Positions 4,110-58,863 of a stretch of DNA of 64,000 bases are shown one piece after another. A model generated the notes under the pieces. That model ran no database searches, was not told the DNA's origin, and saw only the letters and a list, made by a program, of their open reading frames with translations. This DNA comes from Prorocentrum cordatum (Eukaryota), in the NCBI GenBank assembly GCA_963575745.1, contig CAUYUJ010000230.1:1-64000 (forward strand). Reading direction: 5' to 3'. Within the stretch, counting starts at the first letter, position 1. The number at the start of each line of letters is the position of its first letter. The translations under genes were made by a program, and so were the position numbers.

Positions 4110-4650
4110 TGTGGGTGTGTCGGGGTTTCGCCTTGTTGCCGCCCGTCCCCGCTCGTGGGCGCCTCGTGGGCGCCTTATGCGCTGTGTGTGTGTGTATGTT
4201 TATGTGTGTACGTTTATACACATATATATATACATATATATATATGTATGTGTGTGTGTGTGTGTGTGTGGGAGTGTGCGTGCGTGTATCTGTGTCGGGG
4301 TTTCGCCGCGTTGCCGCCCGTCCGTGCTCATAGGCGCCTCGCGGGCGCCTGGTGGGCGCCGCGCGTCATGGATGGTGTGTCGGGGTTTTGTCACTTTGCC
4401 GCCCGTCGCCGATCGTCGGCGCCTCCTGGCCGCCTTGTGTGCTGGGTGGGTTTGTCGGGGTCTCGCCATGTTGCCGCCTGTCCCCGCTCGTGGGCTCCTC
4501 GTGGGCTCCTCGTGGGCTCCTCGTGTGCTGTGTGAGTGTGGCGAAGTCTCGCCACGTTGCCGCCCGTCGCTGCCCGTCAGCGCCTCGTGGGGCGCCCCGT
4601 GCGCTGGGTGGATGTGCCGAGGTTCCGTCTGGTGGCCGCCCTGTTTCCGC
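4110..4650. repeat. Degenerate tandem repeat (GTGTCGGGGTTTCGCC...GCCGCCCGTC...CGTGGGCGCC) with internal (TG)n/(TA)n
   Basis: Unit recurs about 5 times. Confidence 0.75.
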
Positions 4651-5194
4651 CTTGCGGGCGCCACGGGCTTACACCACATACCACATAGCTTGCACCACAT
4701 AGCTTGCACCCCACAGCTTACGACACCTTGCACCACCTATTTTTTTACCACGTAGATCGAGTCGCCGAGCTTACACCACATATATGAGACACCGTCGGTT
4801 CCACATTCACAGTGCAACTGTTCACTGTTTGAGGGCCCTGCTGGCAAATTTTTCAAACAAGCAAGCAAGTTCAGATCGAACAAAAGGCGGTAAAGCTTCG
4901 CAGGCTTTCGAGTTGTTTTTGGTTGGGGTTCTTGGAGGTTTTGGGCCCCCAGGGCGTGTCCAGGCAGCTACGCCCAGCCGAGAGCCTCGCTGGGACGCTG
5001 GACTCGTCTCGAACGGACTCACGCCGGTCATGCAGAGAATGCTCACCCAGAGAAGTCGACAGGAATTCTAGACGCTTCGCTTGGGTGGACAATTGGGGAA
5101 GGACTGCCAGACGAAAGCACAGCTGAATCCGTAAAAGGAAGCAACACAGTCCTCTGTACCAGCTGGATTGAAGTACGGTGTGGGAAGTCACGGC

Positions 5195-7599: not shown

Positions 7600-9000
7600 T
7601 CTTGGGCGTCCTGGGGGCCTCGGGGAGGCCCCCTGGGGCCGCTTGGGGTCCTCTTGGGGGCCTCTTGGAGGCCTCTTGGGGCCATCATGGGGCCATCATG
7701 GGGCCATCTTGGGGCCTCTTGGGGCCTCCTGGGCGCCTCTTGGGGCCATATTGGAGGAAATCTAGCAAAAAAGGAGGGGCGCGAATTAGGGCCCCCCCCC
7801 CGTCAGGGAGCCAACATGGGGCCAAATGGCGGTCGTCGGGGGCTCTTCGTCGTCTTGGGTACCTCGGGGGGCCTCTGGGCCGCTTGGGATCCTTTTGGGG
7901 GCCTCTTGGGGGCCCCTTGGGGGCCTCTCGGGGGCATCTTGGGGCCATCTTGGGACCTCTTGGGGCCTCTTGGGCGCTTCTTGGGGGGGGGGGGCCATCT
8001 TGGAGGATATCGATCAAATAAGAGGGGAGCTTTAATCAGGCCCCCCCCCTCAGGAGGACAAAATGGGGCCAACGCCATCGTAACACCAATGATTTTGGCT
8101 TCCTCGCCGAGGCCGTTTTGAAGGGCCCTGACACCTCGCGAAACCCCCCGTCCAGGTCCAGGGGGGTAGGGGGAGGGGTCAAGTTACCCCCTCGTGGGAT
8201 TTTGCACCGGTCTGTTCACCATTGTCGTTCGCATTCTATCGGTGCAGTACCCTGGCGGTTTCGCTAATCGACGTGTCTTTTGCCGAATGCGTTCGGTAAC
8301 ATTTGGACGCAGTAGAACTTTTCCGCACCCGTGGAATGCCCCCGGCAGCATTCATCGAAATGCGTTATGTTAGCGGAGCTTCTGTCAATCCTCGATTACG
8401 GCCAGATCGTCATGACAGGTTCAGGAAGATTGGTATTTTGAGTTTAAGCTTCGGTATGCTTCCCTCCTCGTCCCTCATCCGTAGCCGTTCCAGCACAGGC
8501 GGGCAGTCCTGTGCTTGCAAGCGCGCGCTTCAGAGCGGCTCGTGCGTGCGGGCCGCCCGGAATGCCACCAGCCTTCTGGGCGTCGGTGGTCGGTGGTTTA
8601 GGGAGTTTCCTCTTCCACCCCTCCTTCTTCCCCTTCGGGGAGGGGTGTACCACTCCCGCTACCTCCTCCCCTAGACCTGGATGGGGGGTTTCGCGAGGTG
8701 TCAGGGCGTCCAAAGCGGCCTCGGCGAGGAAGCCCAAATCATCGGTTTCATTATGGTTTTGGCCCCGTTTTGGCCTCCTGAGGGGGGGCTCTAATTAAAG
8801 CTTCCCTCTTGTTTGATCGATCTCCTCCAAGATGGCCCCAAGAAGCGCCCAGGAGGCCCCAAGAGGTCCCAAGATGGCCCCAAGATGGCTCCAAGAGGCC
8901 CCCAGAGGCCCCCAGGAGGCCCCCAAGAGACCCCCAAGAGGCCCCAAGAGACCCCCCAGAGGCACCCAACATGCTCCAAGAGGATTCGGCGAGAATGTCA
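7600..9000. repeat. Inverted pair of GGCCTCTTGG-family repeats around a ~450-bp spacer
   Basis: 7995-8165 is the reverse complement of ~8670-8835 (CCTCGCCGAGGCCG / CGGCCTCGGCGAGG; CCTGACACCTCGCGAAACCCCCC / GGGGGGTTTCGCGAGGTGTCAGG). Each arm continues into a 10-mer array of opposite orientation. Confidence 0.85.
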
Positions 9001-17514: not shown

Positions 17515-20500
17515 ATTCCCAACCATCCTGTGGTGTGGGTCCTCGTTTTGAAGAGACGGTGCCCCGCGTTCCTCTCCTCTTCTCCTCCTCCTCCTCCACC
17601 TCCTCCTCCTCCTCCTCTTCCTCCGCCTCCTCCTCCCCCTCCTCCCTCCTCCCTGCGTTTCATCATCATCACCCGTTTCAGCACACCCCTCACACGCTTC
17701 GTGGCCCCATAGGGAGCTCCACCGAAGGCCCCAAACGGACCGCCCGCATGCGTCACGCACCACTGAGTACAGCGTTTCGTGGCCCCAAAGGGAGCTCCAC
17801 CGAAGGTCCCAGTGGGACCGCCCGCATGCGTCACGCACTACCCAGTACAGCGCTTCGTGGCCCCATAGGGAGCTCCACCGAAGGCCCCAATCGGACCGCC
17901 TGCATGCGTCACGCACCACCCAGGACAGTGTTGCGTAGCCCCATAGGGAGCGCCACCGAAGGTCCCGGTGGGACCGCCCGCATGCGTCACGCACCACCCA
18001 GTACAGCGTTTCGTGGCCCCAAAGCGAGCTCCACCGAAGGTCCCAGTGGGACGCCCGCATGCGTCACGCACCACTCAGTACAGCGTTTCGTGGCCCCATA
18101 GGGAGCTCCACCGAAGGTCTCAGTGGGACCGCCCGCATGCGACACGCACCACCCAGTACTGCGTTTCGTGGTCCCATAGGGAGCTCCAACGACGGCCCCA
18201 GTGCCACCGCCCGCGTGCGTTGTCCCGCACACCCAATACAGCGTTTCGTGGCCCCCCATAGGGAGCTCCACCGAAGGTCCCAGTGGGACCGCTCGCATGC
18301 GTCACGCACACCCAGTACAGCGTTATGTGGCCCCATAGGGAGCTCCACAGACGGCCCCAGTGGGACCGCCCGCATGCGTCACGCACCACTGAGTACAGCA
18401 TTTCGCGGCCCCAAAGGGAGCTCCACCGAAGGTCCCAGTGGGACCGCCCGCATGCGTCACGCACTACCCAGTACAGCGCTTCGTGGCCCCATAGGGAGCT
18501 CCACCGAAGGTCCCAGTGGGACCGCCCGCATGCGTCCCGCACACCCAGTACAGCGTTTCGTGGCCCCATAGGGAGCTCCACCGAAAGTCTCGGTGGGACC
18601 GCCCGCATGTGTTGCCCACGCCCAGTACAGCGTTTCGTGGCCCCAAAGAGAGCTCCACCGAAGGTCCCAGTGGGACCGCCCGCATGCGTCACGCACACCC
18701 AGCACAGCGTTCCGTGGCCCATGGGGAGCCCCACCGGTTTGTGGCCCCATAGGGAGCTCCACAAACGGTCCCAGTGGCACCGCCCGCATGCGTTTACAAC
18801 GTTTCGCGGTCCACCGAGCTCAGTGGCAAAGTCCGCATGCGTTTTCCCCCACCCAGCACGACGTTTCGTGGCCCATAAGGAGCTCCACCGAAGGCCGTAG
18901 TGGCAAAGTCCGCATGCGTCTCCCCCACCCAGCACAACGTTTCGTGGCCCATGGGGAGCTCCACCGAAAACCCCAGTGGGACCGCCCGCATGCGTCTCCC
19001 CCACCCGCGTCTGCCCCTCCCATTGCAGCGTTTCGTGGCACATAGGGAGCTCCACCGAATGCCCCAGTGGCAAACTTCGCGGGCGTCCCCCCCGCCCGGG
19101 GCAGCGCTTCGTGGCCCCATAGGGAGCTTCACCGAATTCAATACCCATAGTTGTGGTACGCACAACTAAATATGGTTGGGTCCTTCCTCAGGCTGATTTT
19201 TTCCCAACCACCTTGTGGTGTTGGGTCCTCGTTTTCAAGAGACGGTCCCCGCGTTCCTCTCCTCTCCTCCTCCTTCCCCCCCCCTCCCTCCTCCATCACA
19301 ATCATCATCATCACCATCATCACCCGTTTCAGCACACCCTCACACGTTTCGTGGCCTCATGGGGAGCTCCACCAGAGGCCCCAATGGGACCGCCCGCATG
19401 CGTCACGCACCCCCCAGTACAGCGTTCCGTGGCCCCATAAAGGGGGCTCCACAGACGGCCCCAGTGGGACCGCCCGCATGCGTCACGCACCACCCAGTAC
19501 AGCGCTTCGTGGCCCCATAGGGAGCTCCACAAACGGCCCTAGTGGCACCGCCCGCATGCGTCACGCACCACTGATTACAGCGTTTCGTGGCCCCATAGGG
19601 AGCTCCACCGAAGGTCCCAGTGGGACCGCCCGCATGCGTCACGCACTACCCAATCCAGCGCTTCATGGCCCCATAGGGAGCTCCACCGAAGGTCCCAGTC
19701 GGCCCCAGTGGGACCGCCCGCATGCGTCACGCACCATCCAGTACAGCGCTTCGTGGCCCCATAGGGAGCTCCACAAACGGGCCCAGTGGCACCGCCCGCA
19801 TGCGTCACGCACCACCCAGGACAGTGCTGCGTAGTCCTATATGGAGCTCCACCGAAGGTCTCAGTGGGACCGCCCGCATGCGTCACGCACCACCCAGTAC
19901 ACCGTCTCGTGGCCCCATAGGGAGCTCCACCGAAGGTCCCAGTGGGACCGCCCGCATGCGTCACGCACCACCAGTACACCGTTTCGTGGCCCCATAGGGA
20001 GCCCCACCGACGGCCCCAGTGGGACCGCCCGCATGCGTCATGCACTACTCAGTACAGCGTTTCGTCGTGGCCCCATGGGGAGCTCCACCGAAGATCTTAG
20101 TTGGACCGCCCGCATGCGTCACGCACTACCCAGTACAGCGCTTCGTGGCCCCATAGGGAGCTTCACAGACGGCCCCAGTGGGACCGCCCGCATGCGTCCC
20201 GCACACCCAGTACAGCGTTTCGTGGCCGCATAGGGAGCCCCACCGAAGGTCCCGGTGGGACCGCCCGCATGCGTCCCGCACACCCAGTACAGCGTTATGT
20301 GGCCCCATAGGGAGCCCCACCGAAGGTCCAAGTGGGACCGTCCGCATGCGTCGCCCCCACCCAGTCCAACGTTTCGTGGCCCCATAGGGGGCCCCACCGA
20401 AGGTCCCAGTGGGACCACCCTCAGGCGTCCCGCACACCCACTACATCTTGTCGCGGTCCCAAAAGGAGCCCCACCGAAGGTCCCAATGGGACCGCCCGCA

Positions 20501-21020
20501 TGCGTCCCGCACACCCAGTACAGCGTTTCGTGGCCCCATGGGGAGCCCCACCGATCCCATAGAGAGCTCCACCGAAGGCCCCAATGGCAAAGTCCGCATG
20601 CGTTTCCCCCACCCAGCACGACGTTTCGTGGCCCATAGGGAGCTCCACCGAAGGCCCTAGTGGCAAAGTCCGCATGCGTCTCCCCCACCCAGCACCATGT
20701 CTCGTGGCCCCATGGGGAGCTCCACCGAAGGCCCCAGCGGCAAACTTCGCGTGCGTCACGCACCACCCAACACAGCGTTTCGTGGCTCATGGGGAGCTCC
20801 ACCGAAGGCCTCAATGGCAAAGTCCGCATGCGTCCCCCCCACCCAGCACAACGTTTCGTGGCCCATGGGGAGCTCCACCGGAGGCCCCAGTGGCAAACTT
20901 CGCATGCGTCTCCCCCACCCAGTGCAGAGGTTCGTGGCCCCACAGGGAGCTCCACCGAGTACGATACCTATAATTGCGGTATTCACAACTACATCTGGCT
21001 GGGTCCTTCGCCAGGCTAAT
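17515..21020. repeat. ~78-bp satellite organised as two higher-order blocks (~17515-19200, ~19201-21020)
   Basis: Unit GTTTCGTGGCCCCATAGGGAGCTCCACCGAAGGTCCCAGTGGGACCGCCCGCATGCGTCACGCACCACCCAGTACAGC. Both blocks share a head (CCCAACCA..TGTGGTGT..GGTCCTCGTTTT.AAGAGACGGT) and a tail (..CACAACTA..TGGGTCCTTC..CAGGCT.ATTT). Confidence 0.95.
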
Positions 21021-22264
21021 TTTAGAGTCTCCCCGTGTTTACGGACAAGTGGGAGGACTGCAGAATGGAGGGGAGCGGAGGAAGGAGGAGCAGCAGCAGC
21101 AAAAGCAGTGACGCGGCCGGCGGCCATCACCTGGCGCCCCAGGCTCACGGGGCGCCCATCCCAGCGGGAGCCCGACCCGGCTACGCGGGGCGCCGCCTGG
21201 AGCACCGGCTGCGCGGGCTGCCCTGCCGGCCTCGCTCGGCTGCCCTCCTAGCGATGCCCATGAGCTCCGCGAGCTCGCCGTCGCCCAGCTGGGCCACCGC
21301 CGCCGCGACCCGGCGCCGGAGATGCTGGATCTTTCCGCCCGCTGGAACTCCCAGCAGGCGTGCGGTGGCCTTCGCAGCGGGGCGGTCCACGTCCGCCACC
21401 GCCAGCACAAAGACGCCCTGTGCAAGCGCGCTTGGCCGACATCCTGCTGCGGCTCAGGAAGTCGGGGGGGGCCGCCAGCCGCGCACAATTCCACGGGGCC
21501 TGGCCCGGGAGGCACCTCCACCAGCTCCGCTCCGGGAGGCCGTGGCGTCAGCGAGCGGCCGCCGCCCGTCGCCTCAGTCGCCACCTCCGGGCCTGGCCCT
21601 GCCTCCACCGGCTCCGTGCCCGGAAGCTGTCTGGGCTCAGCCGCCTGCTGAGCGGGCGAGCCCGGAGAGTCCTCCTCCACTGCACCCGAAGTTCCGGGAG
21701 GCTTCCCCCGCACAGCCAGAGGCTGCGCAAACTTGACCGGGACGGGGGGTCTGGGAGGCGTCCAGCGCTGCCTCCAGCAGCCCCCGAAAACGCGATAGCA
21801 ATGGCTCCGTTTCATGTGAGTCGTCGGCATGATCGCCGCGGCCCAGAGCGCTCCCAGCAGCCCCGGCTGCCAGCTCTACCGTTGCGGGCGGCACCGCAGG
21901 CCCCGGCGACGTGGCGGGGGCCCACTCGTTCCACCTCAGCCGCGCCCGCTCGTGCTTCGCAGCTGGAGCCTCCACCTCCACCAGGGGCGTCCCGGGAGGG
22001 AGGGAGGGACGCGGGCAGCGCGTTCTGGGCCGTCGCCTCCACCACATCTTCGACCTGTGGGGCACGACCAGGAGGGAGGGACGTCGCCGCCGCCTCCTCT
22101 GGCCGCGCTGCTGGTCCAGGATGCGTCACCTCGACCGAAACCGCGCGCGCGGGGGGTGGCCCCGCCTCATCCAGGGCCTTGGGGTCGAGCCGCGCCAGCT
22201 GCGCCGGCCTGGCCGTAGCCGAAGCCATTTGGGAATCCTCTTGGCGCCAAAACACCATGACGTC

Positions 22265-24070: not shown

Positions 24071-24092
24071 TCCGTAGCCTTTTGGGCTCAAG
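24071..24092 (+). other. Genomic spliced-leader (DinoSL) copy, 20/22 match
   Basis: TCCGTAGCCTTTTGGGCTCAAG vs DCCGTAGCCATTTTGGCTCAAG. Confidence 0.85.
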
Positions 24093-46334: not shown

Positions 46335-46410
46335 TTTTCATGATTTTCTATGATTTTCCATGATTTTCTATGATTTCCATGACTTTCTATGATTTTCTAT
46401 GATTTTGCAC
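46335..46410. repeat. 10-bp tandem repeat (ATGATTTTCT)n
   Basis: About 7 copies. Confidence 0.85.
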
Positions 46411-46614
46411 TATCGCAATTGAAATTAATGTTTTTTTTTTTGTTGTTGTTCTAAGTTTCTTTTCGCCTCTGGTGCTGGTTTCTTTTCGCTTCTGTTGCCG
46501 TTTCTGGTTCTTTTCTTTCCCTTGCCACAGAAGGAAGAAAACCGTCTGGACAGCGACGGTCTGGACGTCCAGGCCGTCACGCCTCACGGGCCGAACATCG
46601 GAGGGGAGCAGGGA

Positions 46615-47465
46615 TAAGGAGGCGGAGGAGGAGGAGGAGGAGGAGGAGGAGGAGGAGGAGGAGGAGGAGGAGGAGGAGGAGGGAGGAGGAGGAGGAGGAG
46701 GAGGAGGAGAGGAGGAGGAGGAGGAGGAGGAGGAGGAGGAGGAGGAGGAGGGAGGAGGAGGAGGAGGAGGAGGAGGAGGAGGAGGAGGAGGAGGAGGAGG
46801 AGGAGGAGGAGGAGGAGGAGGAGGAGGGAGGAGGAGGAGGAGGAGGGGGAGGAGGAGGAGGAGGAGGAGGAGGAGGACGAGAGGAGGAGAGAGGAGGAGG
46901 AGGAGGAGGAGGAGGAGGAGGCGGAGAGGCGGAGGAGGCGGAGGAGGAGGAGGAGGAGAGGAGGAGGAGGAGGAGAGGAGGAGGAGGAGGAGGAGGAGGG
47001 GAGGGAGGAGGGGGAGGAGGAGGAGGGGAGGAGGGGAGGAGGGGGGGAGAGGAGGGGAGGAGGAGGAGGGAGGGAGGAGGAGAGGAGAGGAGGAGGAGGA
47101 GGAGGAGGAGGAGGAGGAGAGGAGGAGGAGGAGGAGGGGAGGAGGAGGAGGAGGAGGAGAGGAGGAGGCGGAGGAGGAGCGGAGGAGGCGGAGGAGGCGA
47201 GGAGGAGGAGGAGGGAGGAGGAGGAGGAGGCGGAGGAGGAGGCGGAGGAGGAGGAGGAGGAGGAGGGAGGAGGAGGAGGAGGAGGAGGAGGAGGGGGGGG
47301 AGGAGGAGGAGGGGGAGGGGAGGGGAGGGGGAGGGGGAGGGGGAGGGGAGGAGGAGGGGGAGGAGGAGGAGGAGGAGAGAGAGGAGGAGGAGGAGGAGGA
47401 GGAGGAGGAGGAGGAGAGGAGGAGGAGGAGGGGGAGGAGGAGGAGGAGGAGGAGGAGGAGGGGGG
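46615..47465. repeat. (GGA)n microsatellite
   Basis: Direct inspection. Confidence 0.97.
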
Positions 47466-48565
47466 CCTATTATTGGCCGAGTCGCGAACGCCTGCCAACA
47501 GGGAAGGCGGGGGGGGGCTATCCGCCCCGGAATTAGTGAGGCCACCTCCACTCAGGCCCTCCTCGGCCTCCGCCTCTTCCCCCTCCCTCCTCTGTTTCCT
47601 CCTTCTCCCTCCAGAGCGTGGTCTGTCAGAACGCGTGCGTTTTTCGTGCGCTGACCTGCAAGAGTGCTCTTTGTTTTGGGTAATTCCAGTGGTGCTCTTG
47701 TTGCTTTCTCCTTCTCCCTTCGGAGCGTGGTATGTCAGAACGCGTGCGTTTTCCTTGCACTGAGCTGCAAGAGTGGCCAACGCGTCGCTCCGTCGCAGTG
47801 TGCGAGCGCAGAGCAGCTTAGCGTGCAAGTATTGTGGCCTGATACCGGCCCAACTGAACTGAACTGAGCTGGGAGCCACAGGGGATGAAACGCCACTGAG
47901 GAAGAGGACGAGGGGGGGGGGAGGAGGAGGAGGAGGACGAGGAGGAGGAGGAGGAGGAGGAGGAAGAGGAGGAAGAGGAGGAAGAGGAGGAGGAAGACGA
48001 GTGACCCGCGCTGTTGGACACGATAGCTTGCACCACATGCTTCTGGTAGCTTGCACCACATGCTTCTGACCAGCACCACGGCCTCCTCCTCCTCCTCCAC
48101 CTCCTCCTCCTCCTCCTCCTCCTCTGAGGGCCCTTGTAAGGCACCCTTCGAGGCTCCAAGGGGGCCCCGAGAGGGCTCCAAGAAGGCTCTGGGAAAGGCC
48201 CAGTTGTGGCAGCAGGAGGATTGGGCAATGTTTTCCCTTGAGCCAAACGGCGTCGATCGACGCGCGCCGGGCGGTCCTAACCACGCCCAGCGAAGGCCGC
48301 AAGAGGGTTCCAGGAGGCCCCCAGTGGCGTATATAACCTGACGCGTTCGTTATATACCCCCTTTGGGGGGTCCTTGGGCCCCTCTCGGGCCCGTGTTGGA
48401 GCCTCTCAGGGGTTCTTTGGGGGCCCTCTTGGGCCCCCGAGGCCCTCAGGGAACCCTCCTCCTCCTCCTCCTCGCTCCACTTCCAGTGGCATTTGGGCCA
48501 AGCCGTGAAACATACAAGCGGTGTGGAATTTTTCCTCCCGCAGGGATCATTGCAAAAACGACGTA

Positions 48566-51500
48566 ATGTTGATGAAAAGCGACGTCACCCGAATAAGTAT
48601 TGACCACGACGACGCTCCCAGTCCGCAAGCATGGCTGCACAATAATGGACTCGTTTGGTGGGACTTGGATTACATCCACCATCATTTTCGAAGAGGGGGG
48701 GGCAATGCAAATGAAACGGAGGCATTGGTTGTTGTGGCTACGATCAAACAGTCGTGAGCCCATCGGCGATGACGTTCTCAACGCTAACGTTTGCACCACG
48801 CTGGGGCTGTACACATTTTTTTTCATATCGGTTGACGTGTGTTGCGATGTGGCATCAACGTTATCACTCGGCTACATTAAACAAGCAATTTCACGCATTT
48901 GCAGGTCGACTCCACCGTTGCAGACATTCGAAATCAGGCTGCCTGGGGATAGCTTGGTCCAAATGCGGCCCGACTGTCACTGCGTTGGGTTCCCTCAATT
49001 CTTAAGGCGGGGGGCATGCTTCGACTTGTAAAATGTTGGAACACGAATGGTCGACTATGTTGGATTCAGGTTCTGTCGTTTCGAGTTCCAACGCAGATAC
49101 GCAAAGCGTTGCAGATGTGATCGTTTTCGTGTCAACAGCTATGCGACGGCGGAGGCGCGCCCGGCACAATCGCAGCGTGCATGCGCACACCGCGCCCCAG
49201 GTAGCCATCAAATGCTTGTTAAACGAGTTGCCGAAACATGTCGACGATTTCGTTAAAGCTTTTGCAACAAACGAAACTGCCCGAGCAGCTCGGCCACCCA
49301 CTGCGCTCCGACTGCGCCGGGGCCCGGATGCACGGCGCCAGTGCACCTCCGTATCTGCCGAGGCCGCTTGGGACATTTTGCAGATGGCTCGCGCTGCGAA
49401 GACAGACATCCACAAGGCGATCGGCCTTCGGAGCGACGGCGCCGAGTTGGGCGGATGTTCGGCAGGCTTGGGCCACAGATGGTCGAGAATGGCACTCGAT
49501 ATGTATCACGAAACAACAAAATTGATTTTTGGTACGGCAGGAGCAGGAGGCGTCCACCACTGGAACATAGTCTCCGATCCAGGCACGCACTCGTGCAAAG
49601 AATGCCTCGTTTCTCTTATGTATTCCTGGGAAATGAACGCGGGCTGTTATCCGAAGTGGGCTCACTTGGTGCCAGGAAAAGCTCTTGCCCCAGGCGAGGC
49701 GGACTTACTTGACTCTGTGGAAGAGAAGCGCGCGCAAAACAAATTGGAGAGGGTAGCGTCTTTCAGACAATTACAAGGTTTATCTCATCAAATATCTTTA
49801 CTTTCAGGAGGGCGCCTGACGTTGGATTCATTTGATCCGCCTGTCGGTTCAAACTTGCGAGCGGTATCCAACAACGAGGTCAGGGAAGTCATGCCAAATG
49901 CTGGCATGGACCTGCACGTCATTACCAACGTCGCTACAGGCCAGCAGCACGAAGTCTTACCTTTGGACGTGACGGACGTGATGCTGTGTATATTGCAACT
50001 GGACCAAGGGAGCGTCGGGTGCGCTGGCGTTCCGTTTGCTTCAATCCACCTCGGCAACATGATAGAAACGCGTTTCGATAAAGTGCACAGGCTGATATCG
50101 TGATCTGAAAGGTGCCGAGCAGGAGTGCATGGGCGGTATATTCAATAAATGCAAGTTTTGGTCCAGCTATCTGCTGGGTGTAAACAACAGGCCGTTCAAG
50201 TCAGGTGCTCACTGGACGCTAAAATCACGAATGCTCGAGCTGTTTGCCGTTGGGAACCCCATGGACAAACCAGTTTTCAAAAACATACATGTGCAAAATT
50301 GCGCAAGATTGGGGCATGCCGTGCGATTCAGACCAGGACAAGCGCAATATAATGGAATTGATGTTTGAGCTTCCTCCCTTTGTTAAGAAGGGGGCGCAAC
50401 CGAAGCAAGCGAACTGGTTTGCATGGAATAAGCAAATGAACGAGCATCAACTTCGTGATTTCTACCCGACAATGGTGATATTTGAAGACCAATTGGAAGG
50501 CGTAGCAGATCCAGACGATGTCAATTATTTCAACGCCGGCACGTCCAATGACCCACGTGCCCAACTACGACATATTATACAACATGGCGGTGGCGTCCGC
50601 TTGGCTGACAAACTGATAGTTCTTCTCTGCACGAGAACGATAAAATACTTTACGTGTGCGAGAACGGCTGCTGGGATTTTTACACTGATCAGATGGCCCG
50701 CGTCAAAACACCGCGCGATGCCCTCGATCATGTTTTCCAAATGAGTCGCGGCGGGTGGACTGCGTCACCGCGCCTGTTGGCAACCTTTGATCTCGCGCTC
50801 CGCAATCCGATGTGTTTGAGAATAATGGGCATCCCTATGGGGCAGAGCGAGCAAGCGACGAAAGCGCTCGTGCTTTCGTTGCACATTGTTTCGAAAAGGG
50901 CGTGGTCGTTGTTCAAGCATTGTTGCCCGCCAGACTCGTGCGCGGGCATTGTGGCGGACCCGGCTGTCGAGGCGGCGGTCGCAGGTGAGCTGCGGAGCGA
51001 TCACATGGCACTCCTGTCGCTGGAGCGGACGGCGCTTGTATGCGACGTGGCTGAGAGGCTTCGGAACGACATCTATTTCCTTCAAATTCCTGCTGTAAGG
51101 GTGGTTTTCGAATTTTTTGCGCGGGGCATGTACTCGCATCTGTCTGTCTGGGGCCGCAAAGTATTATTGGGCCACTTGAAAACGCTACCTGACAACAAAA
51201 GTGTTGAGGACGTGCACCAGCCGCTGCGATTGTCCATTTGCCTCTGGCACTTCGGCCGCCGCCCCGCGGGCCCTGGGAACCTCGGGGAGGGGGGTCGCCA
51301 CCCCCCGTTGAGTGCGCAGGTGGGCGCTGCCAGCGGGGCGCGTGGGTGGGCGGGGGATCCATTGCGAGAGATGCAGAAACTCTACCAGACATCCCGCGGG
51401 CCGCGCAGGCACGGCGGCGGATCTGTCAAAGGGAACATGAACCAAAACATGCGGTGCGCAGCCATCCAGACAGCGATTGAACAGTCAGGCGTGTTGGGGA

Positions 51501-52801
51501 AACGCGGCGTCGCGACGCCTTCTTCCATTGACAGAGCGCATTGGTGTGCCAAATTCAAAAAGTTTTCCAAGCGTTCGAGAGCGAGCGGACAGTATCACCG
51601 TTCGGAATGCCACAAACTGCCAAAGCGTTGGAGCCGCATTGTGCACCCGAACAAAGTCTGGGGCACACTATCGGAATCTGTCTTGCAGAAGTCGGCAGCG
51701 GCATGGCACTGGCTACTCGCATTCAGACAAGGAAAACGAGATGGCAGCATCCTGCCAGATGTCAACATATGCAGTGCGTGTTTTTCGAAATCGATGTTGA
51801 AGTGTATTTTGGTGGTCAGGTCCAGCGACAACGAAATATTTGCGTCGTTAGGGAATTCAGTGTGGGGCTCCTTGGCGTGGCCAGTGGCCACAATCAACGC
51901 GGAGTTGTTTGCGCTAAGTAACGGTCCGGTTACGTGGTTGCATGTTACTGATCCGAGAGACTGGTCTGTAATGTCTTGGACTGCCTGCCGACGCCCCTTG
52001 CATGGCGTTGTCTTTCAACGGAACGGACGCAACATATCACTTATCAAATACACACTATCACAAAAGAAGCACGGGTTGCACGTGGACGACTTCGCGAAGT
52101 GCGTGACTTTCTTGGGCCTGCGCCCCGACGGCGACAGCCCCAGGGCGTTGTTGACGTCGCTTGCTGGTTATGCTTCGCCAGGCGACAACGAGTTCGCTAA
52201 ACGAGTGACTGATTGCTTCGAGACTGGCGATGATGATGGCATCGAGTTGGACCCCAGCATTTTCATGATGGAGCAGGTGTTCGAAGATATGGACCCAGAC
52301 GATAAACATGAGTTCCCTGACGTCAAGGCGGCCCTCGCCAGGAAGAAGCTCAAGCGGGCTGGCGTAGCAGCTAAACGAAAGTTTGGCGTCAGGAAAAAAA
52401 GGAGGGTCGGCGGTGGGCCGCCCGAACCACCGCCGCCAGAACCTCCGCCGCCGCCTCCCGCTGCTGGGGCAATTCCTGGGCCAGTCGATCCGCATGCAGT
52501 GCCCGGGGCGCCAGCAGCAGGGCCAGGGGGGGGTCGCGGTCCAAACGTCTTGCCATGCCCGCTTTCGTGGGTGGATGTGAAACGCTTGGGCTGCAACGCG
52601 CTAGTGGGTCATATCAAATACTTACCATCGCCAGGAGGGAGAGACGGAACATCTTGGAACGTGCGCGTGTGGGATGCGACCTCAAATTGCTGGGGGCGAA
52701 AAGCGCCGTATTTGCGGACAGTCAGATGTACCGTGATTGGTGAATCCGACGTCGGCCCAATCGATTGGGTTCGACACCATGGAGGACGATGTGCGTGTTA
52801 G
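48566..52801 (+). pseudogene. Large intronless frameshifted ORF (~1400 codons), candidate DDE transposase of the 13.3-kb element
   Basis: Consecutive ORFs 48521, 48600, 49033, 50129, 50244 and 50654 give one globular-looking protein. Candidate motifs: WNIVSDPGTH, ILQLDQGS, FDKVHRLI/RDLK, NWFAW, DNKSVEDVHQPLR. Basic NLS-like tract and Trp/Cys-rich C-terminus. Confidence 0.6.
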
Positions 52802-53423
52802 TGCCAGCTTAAGGGCGCGTGGCAGAATTTGCCTTCGCAATTTCGTGGTCATGGGCATGTGGCTCGTGGTGCCGCTGCCAAAGCTTCCACTCAAGGGAAA
52901 CGCATCATAATCCGTCGTGCAATGTCTTGACGAGCGTCTTCAACATTTTTTTTCGAATGAGGGGTGGTAGGAGGAAGTCATAGGGATTGTGGGGAGGAAG
53001 GAGGATGAGGAAGAGAATGAGGAGGAGGAGGAGGAGGAGGAGGAGGAGGAGGAGGAGGAGGAGGAGGAGGAGGAGGAGGAGGAGGAGGAGGGAACGCAAT
53101 CATCATGAGGTCCGATAGCCGCCGTTATTACACATGTAACAACTGCTGGCCTATTCGTTCGCCGCTGACACTCGCAGTTGCGAGTGCAGCCATGGCTTGT
53201 GCACAAAATGCATTCACATTGACGTGCAGATTTGTATTTGCCTCGGCTCGTCGCGGCTATTCGATGTTCTGGCATGGGCCCGCCATGTTTCTATCACTAG
53301 GCCGACGAGGCTCTGACTGATCGTTGGGGGAGCGGCATCGGGCGTGCGATGTGCACTGCGATAAGGAGGGAACCCATACGCAGCCATAACCCCCTCAACC
53401 ACTACACCGAAATATTCTTCGGA

Positions 53424-53660
53424 CAACACTTGATGAGGCCAGGTCTGCGCGGCCTCGCAGGCACCCATGAGAGAAACCATCTCACACAGGGCTTCCTCTG
53501 GGAAACGAAGCAAATCGTGTGAGCGGAGTCGGTCAACTTCAATCCCTGAGTTACCTATAGTCCGACCACGTGCAGCACGCAGGTCGTCAGGCGTGAGGGG
53601 AGGGAAAGCCTCGTAGCGCACACGCTTTCTGATATCATGGACTAGTGTCTGCAACTCATG
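53424..53660 (-). mobile_element. 5'-truncated upstream piece of the same LINE as 37112-40102 (pre-RT domain 0)
   Basis: PPLTPDDLRAARGRTIGNSGIEVDRLRSHDLLRFPEEALCEMVSLMGACEAAQTWPHQVL continues in frame into LTIGTLLPKK at ~40097. Confidence 0.88.
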
Positions 53661-54120
53661 AGGAGAAGGAGGAGGAGGACCAGGAGGAGGCGGAGGAGGA
53701 CGAGGAGCAGGAGGATGATGATGATGATGATGAGGAGGAATAATACTACTAATAATAATAATACTACTAATAATAGTAGTAGTAGTAATACTAATAATAA
53801 TAGTAATAACAATAATAATAATCATAATGATGATGATGATAATAATCATACCAATACTAATAATAATATGAAGAAGGCTAATACTAATCAGAGAAGCGTA
53901 AGAATACTAATACTGATATTAAGAAACACAATAATAATATTAATGATAATACTAATAATACTAATACTGCTACTAATAATAATAATAATAATAATAATAA
54001 TACCAATAATACGACTAATATCAGTAATAATAATAATATTAATAAGAATAATAATAATAATTGTAATAACAATAATATTAGTAGTATAAATAATAATAAT
54101 ACTAATAATAATACTGAATG

Positions 54121-54201
<81 letters not shown>

Positions 54202-54480
54202 TTAATAATAATAATACTTAATAATAATACTAATAATAATAATACCAATAATACTAATGATAAGAAGAATACTATCAATAATACGAAGAAGACGAATAAC
54301 AAGAATAGGAGGAGGAGGATGATGTGGAGGAGGAGGAGGAGGAGGAGGAGCAGGAGGACCAGGAACAGGAGGAGGAGGAGGAGCAGGAGGAGGACGAGGA
54401 GGAGGAGGATGAGTAGGAGGGGAGGAGGAGGGGGAGGAGGAGGAGGAGGAGGAGGAGGAGGAGGAGGAGGAGGAGGAGGG

Positions 54481-54516
<36 letters not shown>

Positions 54517-55069
54517 NNNNNNNNNNNNNNNNNNNNNNNNNNNNNNNNNNNNNNNNNNNNNNNNNNNNNNNNNNNNNNNNNNNNNNNNNNNNNNNNNNNN
54601 NNNNNNNNNNNNNNNNAGGACGCTGAGAGGCGCGCGGTGCCGCGCCCGCGTCGGCCGCGTCGGGCGCTCCTGTGGTGCGTTCGGTCCGGGTCCCTCCTCC
54701 GACCCAAAAACCCCGGAGCATGCGGCGGAGGAGGAAGACCAGGAAGAGGAGACAGAGGAGGAGGAGGAGGAGGAGGAGGAGGAAGGAGGAGGGGAGGAGG
54801 AGGAGGAGGAAGGAGAGGCAGCAGGAGGAGGAGGGGGAGGAGGAGGAGGAGGAGGAGGAGGAGGAGGAGGAGGAGGAGGGGCAGGAAAGAGGATGAGATC
54901 GAGGAGGAGGGGGATGAGGGCGAGGATAATGGCGAAGCGTAAACCAAGGAAACGGTCGAGGAGAAAGGGGAGGAGCAGAACGAGGTCGGGGAGGAGGAGG
55001 AGGTGGAGGAGGACGAGGAGAAGGACAGGGAGGAGGAGGAGGAGGAGGAGGAGGAGGAGGAGGAGGAGA
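53661..55069. repeat. Compound (GGA)n/(TAA)n/(GAT)n microsatellite region containing the assembly gap
   Basis: Direct inspection. Confidence 0.9.
54517..54616. other. Assembly gap (100 N)
   Basis: Run of 100 n. Confidence 1.
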
Positions 55070-55091
55070 TCCGTAGCCATTTTGGCTCAAG
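55070..55091 (+). other. Perfect genomic DinoSL copy
   Basis: TCCGTAGCCATTTTGGCTCAAG, 22/22. Confidence 0.97.
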
Positions 55092-58826: not shown

Positions 58827-58863
58827 TCCGTAGCCATTTTGGCCCAAGCAATTTTGGCTCAAG
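58827..58863 (+). other. Tandem SL plus relict SL
   Basis: TCCGTAGCCATTTTGGCCCAAG (21/22) immediately followed by CAATTTTGGCTCAAG (14/15 to the SL 3' 15-mer). Confidence 0.92.

What the first reader, a model, noticed from the sequence alone, without database searches (positions are those of the whole stretch)
48566..52801. Candidate highly divergent DDE transposase with a DxxH motif and possible Bro-N-like N-terminus
Seen: one long protein across at least 5 disruptions, with acidic residues following hydrophobic strands: WNIVS-D-PG (D ~49576), CILQL-D-QGS (D ~50002), F-D-KV-H-RLIRD (~50077-50104), NWFAW and DNKSV-E-DVHQPLR (E ~51206). Known: hAT, P, MULE and Kolobok transposases have a (C/D)xxH motif after the second Asp and a long helical insertion before the catalytic Glu; Transib/RAG1 have a similar His motif and E-x-x-N-x-x-x-R. 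The N-terminal NNGLVWWDLDYI...VCTTLGLYTFFFIS resembles Bro-N DNA-binding domains. Inference: this is the element's transposase.
Basis: inference. Interest (0 to 1): 0.8.

Follow-up and report, generated by a model that had tools for sequence, protein, structure and literature searches.

The report
Decayed hAT-like transposase gene, dinoflagellate
This stretch is a broken copy of a gene for a cut-and-paste DNA transposase that is shaped like the housefly Hermes (hAT) enzyme and belongs to a very large, unnamed protein family of marine protists.

Summary
Window 48566-52801 (+) is one ~1,400-codon gene read across five frame changes plus a ~192-nt in-frame insert.

It is one copy of a large family with no Pfam match. 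Intact relatives have 1,365-1,400 residues. The family has 3,078 representatives at 50% clustering.

Across 100 diverse members the proposed residues are almost invariant: D 54/57, D 87/89, D-x-x-H 84/91 and 90/91, W 88/88, E 62/62.

An AlphaFold model of a member (pLDDT 89) has the RNase H-like strand and helix order with an all-helical insertion. Its best structural matches are all Hermes (hAT) chains, at Z 12.5-14.7. ISCth4 scores 9.5, the P element 8.0 and RAG1 5.3.

So the DDE/DxxH reading is supported, and the closest solved relative is hAT. The Bro-N idea has no sequence support, and its fold was not tested.

No element ends or target duplication were found, so mobility and formal hAT membership stay open.

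This scan has already noted several Hermes-like transposases elsewhere in this genome. None was close in sequence to this one.

The parts
48566..48694 (+). N-terminal segment from the ATG, containing the conserved WWDLD motif (48647-48676).
   Evidence: tblastn P0010 residues 1-44, E 5.6e-6. Coordinates.
48693..48701 (+). Frame change 1, in a run of eight G.
   Evidence: Three-frame view. A related copy in run X1 lacks 3 bases here, which leaves the frame unchanged.
48708..49013 (+). Second N-terminal segment (VCTTLGLYTFFFIS at 48789-48830). Frame change 2 follows, in a run of six G at 49007-49013.
   Evidence: tblastn P0001 50-132 and P0010 86-166..
49006..50097 (+). Core segment with strand-1 Asp (49576-49578), strand-4 Asp (50002-50004) and the D-x-x-H motif (D 50077, H 50086).
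   Evidence: E 2.6e-62 to P0001. Profile E 1.6e-103, positions 42-366. Residues conserved 54/57, 87/89, 84/91 and 90/91.
50095..50099 (+). Frame change 3, directly after HRLI of the D-x-x-H helix.
   Evidence: Relatives read HRxIRDLK. The window reads HRLIS-stop in one frame and RDLKGAEQ in the next.
50099..50281 (+). Segment with RDLK...LGVNNRPFKSGA. Frame change 4 follows, in T4/A5 near 50270-50282.
   Evidence: Profile E 4.1e-24, positions 367-428..
50280..50618 (+). Start of the helical insertion domain, with NWFAWN (50412-50429; invariant Trp at 50415-50417). Frame change 5 follows, near 50610-50622.
   Evidence: Profile E 3e-34. Trp 88/88..
50618..51232 (+). Remainder of the insertion domain and the catalytic helix DNKSVEDVHQPLR (E 51206, H 51215, R 51227).
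   Evidence: Profile positions 538-741, domain E 2e-68. E 62/62, H 60/62, R 58/62.
51233..51427 (+). In-frame GC-rich insert of about 64 codons, right after the catalytic helix. It is absent from the relatives.
   Evidence: No counterpart in 13 of 13 aligned relatives. Gap in tblastn and profile hits. No GT/AG pair removes it in frame (my reading). A related copy has a 13-base deletion and a 1-base insertion inside it.
51428..52801 (+). C-terminal extension with HKLP and AAAW motifs, a beta-rich domain, a weak SAP-like motif, an acidic/basic and Pro-rich linker, and a degenerate Cys module (52571-52666, first Cys of CxxC replaced). Stop at 52799-52801.
   Evidence: Profile positions 744-1137, domain E 8.3e-81. 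Alignment. SAP-like rows.

Best explanation
Window 48566-52801 (+) is a single, decayed copy of the transposase gene of a hAT-like cut-and-paste DNA transposon of a dinoflagellate.

**The intact protein (1,365-1,400 residues in the four full-length relatives).**
- It has an RNase H-like DDE core.
- The first Asp lies on strand 1 (ADPG). The second follows strand 4 directly (LDQGS). The Glu lies on a helix (NKxVEDxHxxxR) that follows a ~350-residue all-helical insertion domain.
- A D-x-x-H motif opens the helix after strand 5, where Hermes has C-x-x-H.
- An invariant (R/N)-W opens an insertion-domain helix and resembles Hermes R318-W319.

**Inferred mechanism.**
- The three carboxylates bind two Mg2+ ions.
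- The enzyme nicks at the element ends. As in hAT elements, it makes a hairpin on the flanking DNA with help from the His and the Trp.
- It then joins the freed 3' ends to a staggered target.

**Shown.** The gene, the family, residue conservation, the predicted fold and its likeness to Hermes.

**Inferred.** Catalysis, hairpin chemistry and mobility.

The window copy itself cannot make the protein as assembled. It has five frame changes, a 64-codon insert beside the catalytic helix, and a lost zinc-module cysteine.
For: **The gene is real and single.**
- E 2.6e-62 to an intact 1,393-aa relative.
- Profile hits tile positions 42-1137.

**The family is large and diverse.**
- 13 relatives of 38-100% identity to the query P0001, which is one of the 13.
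- 3,078 representatives at E<=1e-3, 2,003 at <=1e-10 and 757 at <=1e-30.

**Conservation in 100 members.**
- D 54/57.
- D 87/89, G 88/89.
- D 84/91 (the rest include E 3 and C 2), H 90/91, R 84/91.
- W 88/88.
- E 62/62, H 60/62, R 58/62 plus K 4.

**Fold.**
- The model of P0018 from a 100-sequence alignment has pLDDT 89.1 and pTM 0.80.
- Its order of elements is strands 231-241, 244-253 and 258-260, helix 284-314, strand 375-380, helix 384-396, strand 401-405, helix 407-421, helices 424-773, then helix 780-795.
- D237, D381, D406/H409 and E783 sit at the canonical places in that order.

**Structural matches.**
- Foldseek ranks 1-11 are all Hermes chains, with probability 0.95-1.00.
- VIA-align gives Hermes Z 14.1 (386 aligned, rmsd 4.8) against 48,161 chains, and Z 12.5-14.7 for six Hermes entries.
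- Below Hermes come ISCth4 at 9.5, Tn5 at 9.3, retroviral integrases at about 8, the P element at 7.5-8.0 and RAG1 at 5.3.
- The weaker first model, taken on its own, also has Hermes as its best match (Z 6.7). Its range 188-565 aligns to Hermes 264-568. If the ends of that range are ungapped, D189/H192 fall on Hermes 265/268, and the range ends three residues before E568, against Hermes E572.
- Integrase rows start at model 228-230 = chain 55-57. If strand 1 is ungapped, this puts D237 on residue 64. That this is the catalytic Asp of HIV-1 and ASV integrase is recalled.

**Hermes key residues from papers.** D180, D248, R318, W319 and E572 from a passage of PMC6027215. H268 of CxxH, and W182/W319 for hairpin formation, from passages of PMC4763223.

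**Transposon-like population.**
- Most metagenome copies are broken.
- L020 is an internally deleted derivative of the L012 type.
- 99 contigs of a related organism's run lie on the stretch at 85-99% likeness, including the low-complexity flanks.
Against: - **No ends.** No terminal inverted repeats or target-site duplication were found around the window copy. None were found in five of the longer metagenome loci either. Mobility is therefore not shown.
- **No sequence link to a known transposase.** There was no Pfam hit for the window pieces, P0001, P0002 or 37 members. No solved chain matched by profile, nor by single sequence with P0001.
- **Helical models score high.** The tool notes that mostly helical models can reach Z about 14 by chance arrangement. 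The argument here rests on all top rows being one transposase and the next rows being DDE enzymes.
- **No solved structures for four superfamilies.** As far as I recall, CACTA/CMC, Kolobok, Novosib and Zisupton transposases have no solved structure. A closer relative than hAT cannot be excluded.
Confidence: 0.8

Rival explanations
1. The family is a domesticated or otherwise immobile host gene family derived from a hAT-like transposase. The window holds a pseudogene of it, not a transposon remnant.
For: - No inverted ends or target duplication were found.
- Intact 1,365-1,400-aa reading frames exist on single contigs.
- The long C-terminal extension with a possible SAP-like motif could serve a host function.
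Against: - 3,078 representatives at 50% clustering is far more than one expects of a host gene family.
- Most genomic copies in metagenome contigs are broken.
- One copy is an internal-deletion derivative.
- The catalytic residues are kept almost without exception.
Confidence: 0.12
2. The enzyme belongs to another insertion-domain superfamily (P, MULE/IS256, Transib/RAG1, Kolobok, CMC), and the likeness to Hermes reflects only the shared architecture.
For: - The motif is D-x-x-H, as recalled for P elements, not C-x-x-H.
- ISCth4 (Z 9.5, 266 aligned) and the P element (Z 8.0, 322 aligned) also align over the long range.
- To my recollection, several superfamilies have no solved structure, so they cannot appear in the fold search.
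Against: - Hermes stands 5 Z units above the next family and aligns the most residues, 372-386.
- The insertion domain alone picks Hermes.
- The R/N-W pair fits Hermes R318-W319.
- No Pfam hit to P, MULE, RAG1, CACTA or KDZ models.
Confidence: 0.15
3. The gene is intact in the organism, and the frame changes are assembly errors.
For: Three of the five frame changes lie in homopolymer runs: G8, G6 and T4/A5. All catalytic residues are kept, and no in-frame stop occurs within the segments.
Against: - Two frame changes are not in homopolymers.
- A 64-codon insert sits beside the catalytic helix, and the first Cys of CxxC is lost.
- A related copy in run X1 differs at the G8 run by 3 bases, which keeps the shifted frame. 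It also carries frame-breaking indels inside the insert.
Confidence: 0.1

Closest known systems
Hermes and the hAT superfamily of DDE transposases (Ac, hobo, Tol2)
   Same: - An RNase H-like core interrupted by a large all-helical insertion domain. The predicted fold aligns to Hermes residues 114-609 at Z 12.5-14.7.
- Asp, Asp and Glu at the canonical places.
- A His three residues after a C/D, at the start of the helix after strand 5.
- An (R/N)-W pair like R318-W319.
   Different: - No sequence match to any hAT Pfam model or to Hermes.
- D-x-x-H in 84 of 91 members against C-x-x-H in 2 of 91.
- The spacing between the first and second Asp is 144 residues (P0018), against 68 in Hermes (D180 to D248).
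- No Pfam-detectable BED finger.
- A C-terminal extension of more than 500 residues beyond the part that aligns to Hermes.
- Target duplication and end sequences are unknown.
ISCth4 (IS256 family, prokaryotic kin of Mutator-like elements)
   Same: A DDE core with an insertion. Z 8.4-9.5, with 257-273 residues aligned.
   Different: A much lower score than Hermes, and the enzyme is far smaller. No Pfam MULE hit.
Drosophila P element transposase
   Same: D-x-x-H (recalled) and an insertion domain. Z 7.5-8.0 with 272-322 residues aligned.
   Different: High rmsd of 6.0-8.0 Å. No THAP or P-element Pfam hit. A GTP-binding insertion domain was not tested.
RAG1 and Transib
   Different: RAG1 scores only Z 5.3. 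Transib does not appear in the lists shown.

Membership tests
hAT superfamily | RNase H-like DDE core with an all-alpha insertion domain, as in Hermes | tested here: met
   Model pLDDT 89.1. Foldseek ranks 1-11 are all Hermes. Z 12.5-14.7 with 372-386 residues aligned. The insertion domain alone gives Z 6.7.
hAT superfamily | Key residues D180, D248, R318, W319 and E572, plus C-x-x-H (Hermes numbering; PMC6027215 and PMC4763223, passages) | tested here: inconclusive
   D 54/57, D 87/89, W 88/88, E 62/62 and H 90/91. R precedes the W in 61/88 and N in 25/88. The C of CxxH is D in 84/91 and C in 2/91. Residue-by-residue equivalence to Hermes is inferred from range ends only.
hAT superfamily | C-terminal hAT domain recognisable by sequence (Pfam Dimer_Tnp_hAT / IPR008906) | tested here: not met
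   No Pfam hit for the window pieces, P0001, P0002 or 37 members. The fold alignment nevertheless runs to Hermes residue 609.
hAT superfamily | 8-bp target-site duplication | tested here: inconclusive
   No element ends could be located. Earlier scan notes report 8 bp for one hAT-like element of this genome and 4 bp for another. I did not test those notes, and identity with this family is unknown.
hAT superfamily | Short terminal inverted repeats | tested here: inconclusive
   The only candidate is an 11-bp inverted pair at 48232-48242 and 52890-52900. That is within chance for the wider scan.
hAT superfamily | N-terminal BED zinc finger (common, not universal) | tested here: not met
   No Pfam hit. 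The N-terminus carries a conserved WWDLD motif instead.
P element superfamily | THAP domain and P-type catalytic/GTP-binding domains | tested here: inconclusive
   No Pfam hit. Structural Z 7.5-8.0 at rmsd 6-8 Å.
Transib / RAG1 | RAG1-like core fold | tested here: inconclusive
   RAG1 Z 5.3 with 261-282 residues aligned. No Pfam RAG1 hit.
Bro-N domain proteins | Match to the Bro-N family by sequence or fold | tested here: inconclusive
   No Pfam hit at E up to 1 for the window's N-terminal pieces, or at E up to 10 for P0001 and P0002. The segment with WWDLD is in neither model, so its fold was not tested.

The most novel reading that the evidence does not exclude
The family is an undescribed superfamily-level lineage of eukaryotic cut-and-paste transposons, sister to hAT and abundant in dinoflagellates and other marine protists.

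Its distinguishing features would be:
- D-x-x-H in place of C-x-x-H;
- a doubled spacing between the first two catalytic Asp;
- no BED finger;
- a C-terminal extension of more than 500 residues, carrying a beta-rich domain, a SAP-like motif and a small Cys module that take over end recognition.
Probability: 0.3. Interest if true: 0.7.

Novelty: new variant of a known kind. Interest (0 to 1): 0.5.

Why it matters
Dinoflagellate genomes are huge and full of repeats, and much of that repeat content remains unclassified. This work gives a name and a fold to a protein family that has thousands of representatives in public marine data but no annotation at all. It supplies an alignment, the catalytic residues and a confident model.

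If the element ends can be defined, the family would show how far the hAT design can drift. It would also offer candidates for a transposon tool native to dinoflagellates, which are hard to transform.

The window copy itself is a dead relic and tells us little on its own.

Tried and rejected
**No genome held.** No whole genome is held for this window, so genome-wide copies could not be collected.

**Inverted repeats.**
- The repeat scan of 44-58 kb was swamped by low-complexity GAG/CTC repeats.
- Targeted searches gave only 10-11-bp pairs within chance.
- A whole-window inverted self-match gave no pair bracketing the gene closely. It gave only 70-72% dispersed repeats at 8.8/23.3 kb against 58.6/62.5 kb.

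**Metagenome loci.** Upstream-versus-downstream searches in L018, L014/L012, L001 and L008 gave nothing but TA repeats and 11-12-mers.

**First model.** It came from 13 sequences and was poor over the core. Foldseek found nothing at E<=0.001 with it.

**Sequence searches of solved structures.** The profile search gave only two chance rows at E 0.56 and 3. The single-sequence search gave three chance rows.

**Protein Atlas.**
- No usable hit for P0018.
- For P0001 residues 1-340 the best scores were 0.82, at noise level.
- Named rows at 0.75-0.76 carried ZBED/FAM200 RNase-like families. These are, as far as I recall, hAT-derived. I treat them as a weak lead only.

**Other collections.**
- Viral contigs held no relative.
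- The prokaryote genome collection gave one 3.8-kb contig of a metagenome-assembled genome. It is probably a misplaced eukaryotic contig.

**Sequencing runs.** No RNA holder was listed. Only one DNA run held a fifth of the words.

**Insert as an intron.** No GT/GC/GA...AG pair removes 51233-51427 in frame (my reading).

**Retrocopy.** There is no DinoSL relic upstream on the + strand. Only a 12-nt partial match lies on the minus strand at 48237-48248. None is present in the 20 loci.

**Literature.** Five full-text searches found no paper describing this family, and one search was aimed at Hermes residues. This does not show that it is unpublished. Repbase could not be consulted.
Full report
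**What is there.** On the + strand from the ATG at 48566 to the stop at 52801 lies one long coding region, broken into pieces in different frames.
- tblastn with three intact relatives orders the pieces as 48566-48694, 48708-49013, 49006-50097, 50099-50281, 50280-50618, 50618-51232 and 51428-52795.
- That makes five frame changes, plus an in-frame stretch (51233-51427) that none of 13 aligned relatives has.
- Three of the five frame changes lie in homopolymer runs, namely G8, G6 and T4/A5. Some could be assembly errors.
- The insert beside the catalytic helix, the loss of the first Cys of a conserved CxxC, and frame-breaking indels inside the insert in a related copy all point to real decay.
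- The window holds no second copy.

**It is a family, and a very large one.**
- The 365-aa piece finds an intact 1,393-aa protein at E 2.6e-62 with 40% identity over 99% of the piece.
- A search with that protein's core found 13 proteins of 38-100% identity, the query itself included. Among them and the first search are four intact proteins of 1,365-1,400 residues.
- A profile of 13 members, read against 1.84 billion representatives, found 3,078 proteins at E<=1e-3, 2,003 at <=1e-10 and 757 at <=1e-30.
- None of the window pieces, P0001, P0002 or 37 diverse members hits any Pfam family. Where a source names the proteins at all, it calls them 'hypothetical protein'.

**Conservation of the proposed residues.** In an alignment of 100 members, some only 21% identical to the reference P0018, the counts are as follows:

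| Site | Count |
|---|---|
| Asp of ADPG | 54 of 57 |
| Asp of LDQGS | 87 of 89 (the Gly, 88 of 89) |
| D of D-x-x-H | 84 of 91 (the rest include E 3 and C 2) |
| H of D-x-x-H | 90 of 91 |
| Trp of (R/N)WF(S/A)W | 88 of 88 |
| Glu of NKxVEDxHxxxR | 62 of 62 |
| His at +3 from the Glu | 60 of 62 |
| Arg at +7 from the Glu | 58 of 62, plus 4 Lys |

The denominators are the sequences that have a residue in that column.

**Fold.** A first model, of P0008 from 13 sequences, was poor over the core, with pLDDT below 50 for residues 1-119 and 152-189. Foldseek found nothing with it.

A second model, of P0018 (854 aa) from the 100-sequence alignment, reached mean pLDDT 89.1 and pTM 0.80. Its order of elements is that of an RNase H-like DDE enzyme:
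- strands 231-241, 244-253 and 258-260;
- helix 284-314;
- a beta hairpin;
- strand 375-380;
- helix 384-396;
- strand 401-405;
- helix 407-421;
- an all-helical block 424-773;
- helix 780-795.

D237 lies in the first strand. D381 follows the fourth strand directly. D406/H409 open the helix after the fifth strand. E783 lies in the last helix. I could not read coordinates, so the distances between the carboxylates were not measured.

**Structural neighbours.**
- Foldseek against the PDB ranks eleven Hermes chains first, with E 6.1e-4 to 4.4e-2 and probability 0.95-1.00. Everything below is noise.
- VIA-align against 48,161 representative chains puts Hermes first at Z 14.1 (rmsd 4.8, 386 aligned, model 193-829 on Hermes 135-609).
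- The following rows are ISCth4 (9.5), Tn5 (9.3), retroviral integrase cores (7-8.6, about 135 aligned), the P element (7.5) and RAG1 (5.3).
- The second look at Foldseek's list gives six Hermes entries at Z 12.5-14.7, and the P element at 8.0 with rmsd 8.0.
- The poor first model also has Hermes as its best match (Z 6.7, 212 aligned). Its range 188-565 lies on Hermes 264-568. If the range ends are ungapped, D189/H192 of the D-K-I-H motif fall on Hermes 265/268, and the range stops three residues before E568, against Hermes E572.
- The integrase rows begin at model 228-230 = chain 55-57. If the first strand is ungapped, D237 falls on residue 64. I recall, but did not check here, that this is the catalytic Asp of HIV-1 and ASV integrase.
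- Passages of PMC6027215 give D180, D248, R318, W319 and E572 as the key residues of Hermes.
- Passages of PMC4763223 give H268 of the CxxH motif as part of the active site, W182 and W319 as needed for efficient hairpin formation, and the 8-bp target duplication and the C-terminal hAT domain as marks of the superfamily.

**What it most likely does.** An intact member is a DDE transposase built like Hermes.
- By inference from hAT enzymes, the three carboxylates hold two metal ions.
- The enzyme nicks at the element end, and the freed 3'-OH attacks the other strand to make a hairpin on the flanking DNA. The His and the Trp help in this step.
- The element's 3' ends then join to a staggered target.

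None of this chemistry is shown here.

The region beyond the part that aligns to Hermes is more than 500 residues long. It holds a confidently predicted beta-rich domain, a weak, repeated likeness to SAP motifs (Ku70 SAP Z 4.9, with two other SAP-domain rows at 3.2-3.9), a charged and Pro-rich linker, and a small Cys module. I take these as candidate DNA-binding parts, without a test.

**Is it a transposon?**

For:
- the size of the family;
- the many broken genomic copies in metagenome contigs of 41-54% GC;
- an internally deleted copy, where L020 joins L012 positions 1990 and 4472;
- 99 contigs of a related organism's run at 85-99% likeness, with two variants at some sites.

Against:
- I found no inverted ends or target duplication in the window or in the loci.
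- The one 11-bp inverted pair, at 48232-48242 and 52890-52900, is within chance for the wider scan.

The genome is a dinoflagellate's. Spliced-leader relics stand at 24072, 55071, 58828 and 58843 (the motif is recalled).

**Earlier scan notes.** Earlier notes describe several Hermes-like transposase genes elsewhere in this genome.
- Some lie in elements of 14-42 kb.
- One has an 8-bp and one a 4-bp duplication.
- These notes are untested by me, and none of those stretches is close in sequence to this gene.
- They made me look for far-apart ends, without result.

**The Bro-N idea.** The N-terminal WWDLD and CxTTxxLxxF motifs are conserved in the full-length relatives. They hit no Pfam family. 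Neither model contains them, so the fold is untested.

**Verdict.**
- The DDE/DxxH reading is supported, and sharpened to hAT-like.
- Formal hAT membership is open. The fold and key residues are met. The sequence-level hAT domain and BED finger are not met. The ends and target duplication are unknown.
- The family looks like an unannotated, strongly diverged variant of a known kind.
- The window copy is a dead one.

Noticed in passing
window 24072-24092, 55071-55091, 58828-58863 (+): Relics of the dinoflagellate spliced leader in genomic DNA: one perfect at 55071, and two in tandem at 58828/58843. These are a mark of retroposed gene copies (motif recalled).
   Followed up: partly
window 17516-21023: A large tandem array. 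Self-matches of 75-83% identity are offset by multiples of about 78 bases.
   Followed up: no
window 48152-48189: A 38-base piece just upstream of the gene falls in a bin (47994-48187) with summed depth of about 154 in a related organism's contigs. The depth over the gene is 0.4-10. Loose ends lie on both sides. It looks like a short, highly repeated unit.
   Followed up: no
L012 5176-6147 and L018 6466-7175: A second open reading frame downstream of the transposase gene is shared by two diverged copies (34-46% protein identity) and has no Pfam match. It has no counterpart in the window, and it may be a second gene of that sub-family's element.
   Followed up: partly
L020 against L012: L020 matches L012 619-1990 and then 4472-4822. 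It is thus an internal-deletion copy, of the kind non-autonomous DNA transposons show.
   Followed up: partly
L014 3150-3472: The nearly intact copy in L014 has about 320 extra bases, with two in-frame stops, between parts that are adjacent in P0001. This may be an intron.
   Followed up: no
L021 (contig of a metagenome-assembled 'Weeksellaceae' genome): A 3.8-kb contig filed under a bacterial bin encodes a 49%-identical relative of this eukaryotic family. It was probably binned in error.
   Followed up: no
window 7855-8179 and 8649-8969: An inverted repeat of 332 bases at 84% identity, with arms 470 bases apart.
   Followed up: no
window 46400-48130, 52970-53100, 53640-54500: Long GAG/CTC and AT-rich low-complexity tracts flank the gene on both sides. 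A run of N lies within 54413-54626.
   Followed up: no
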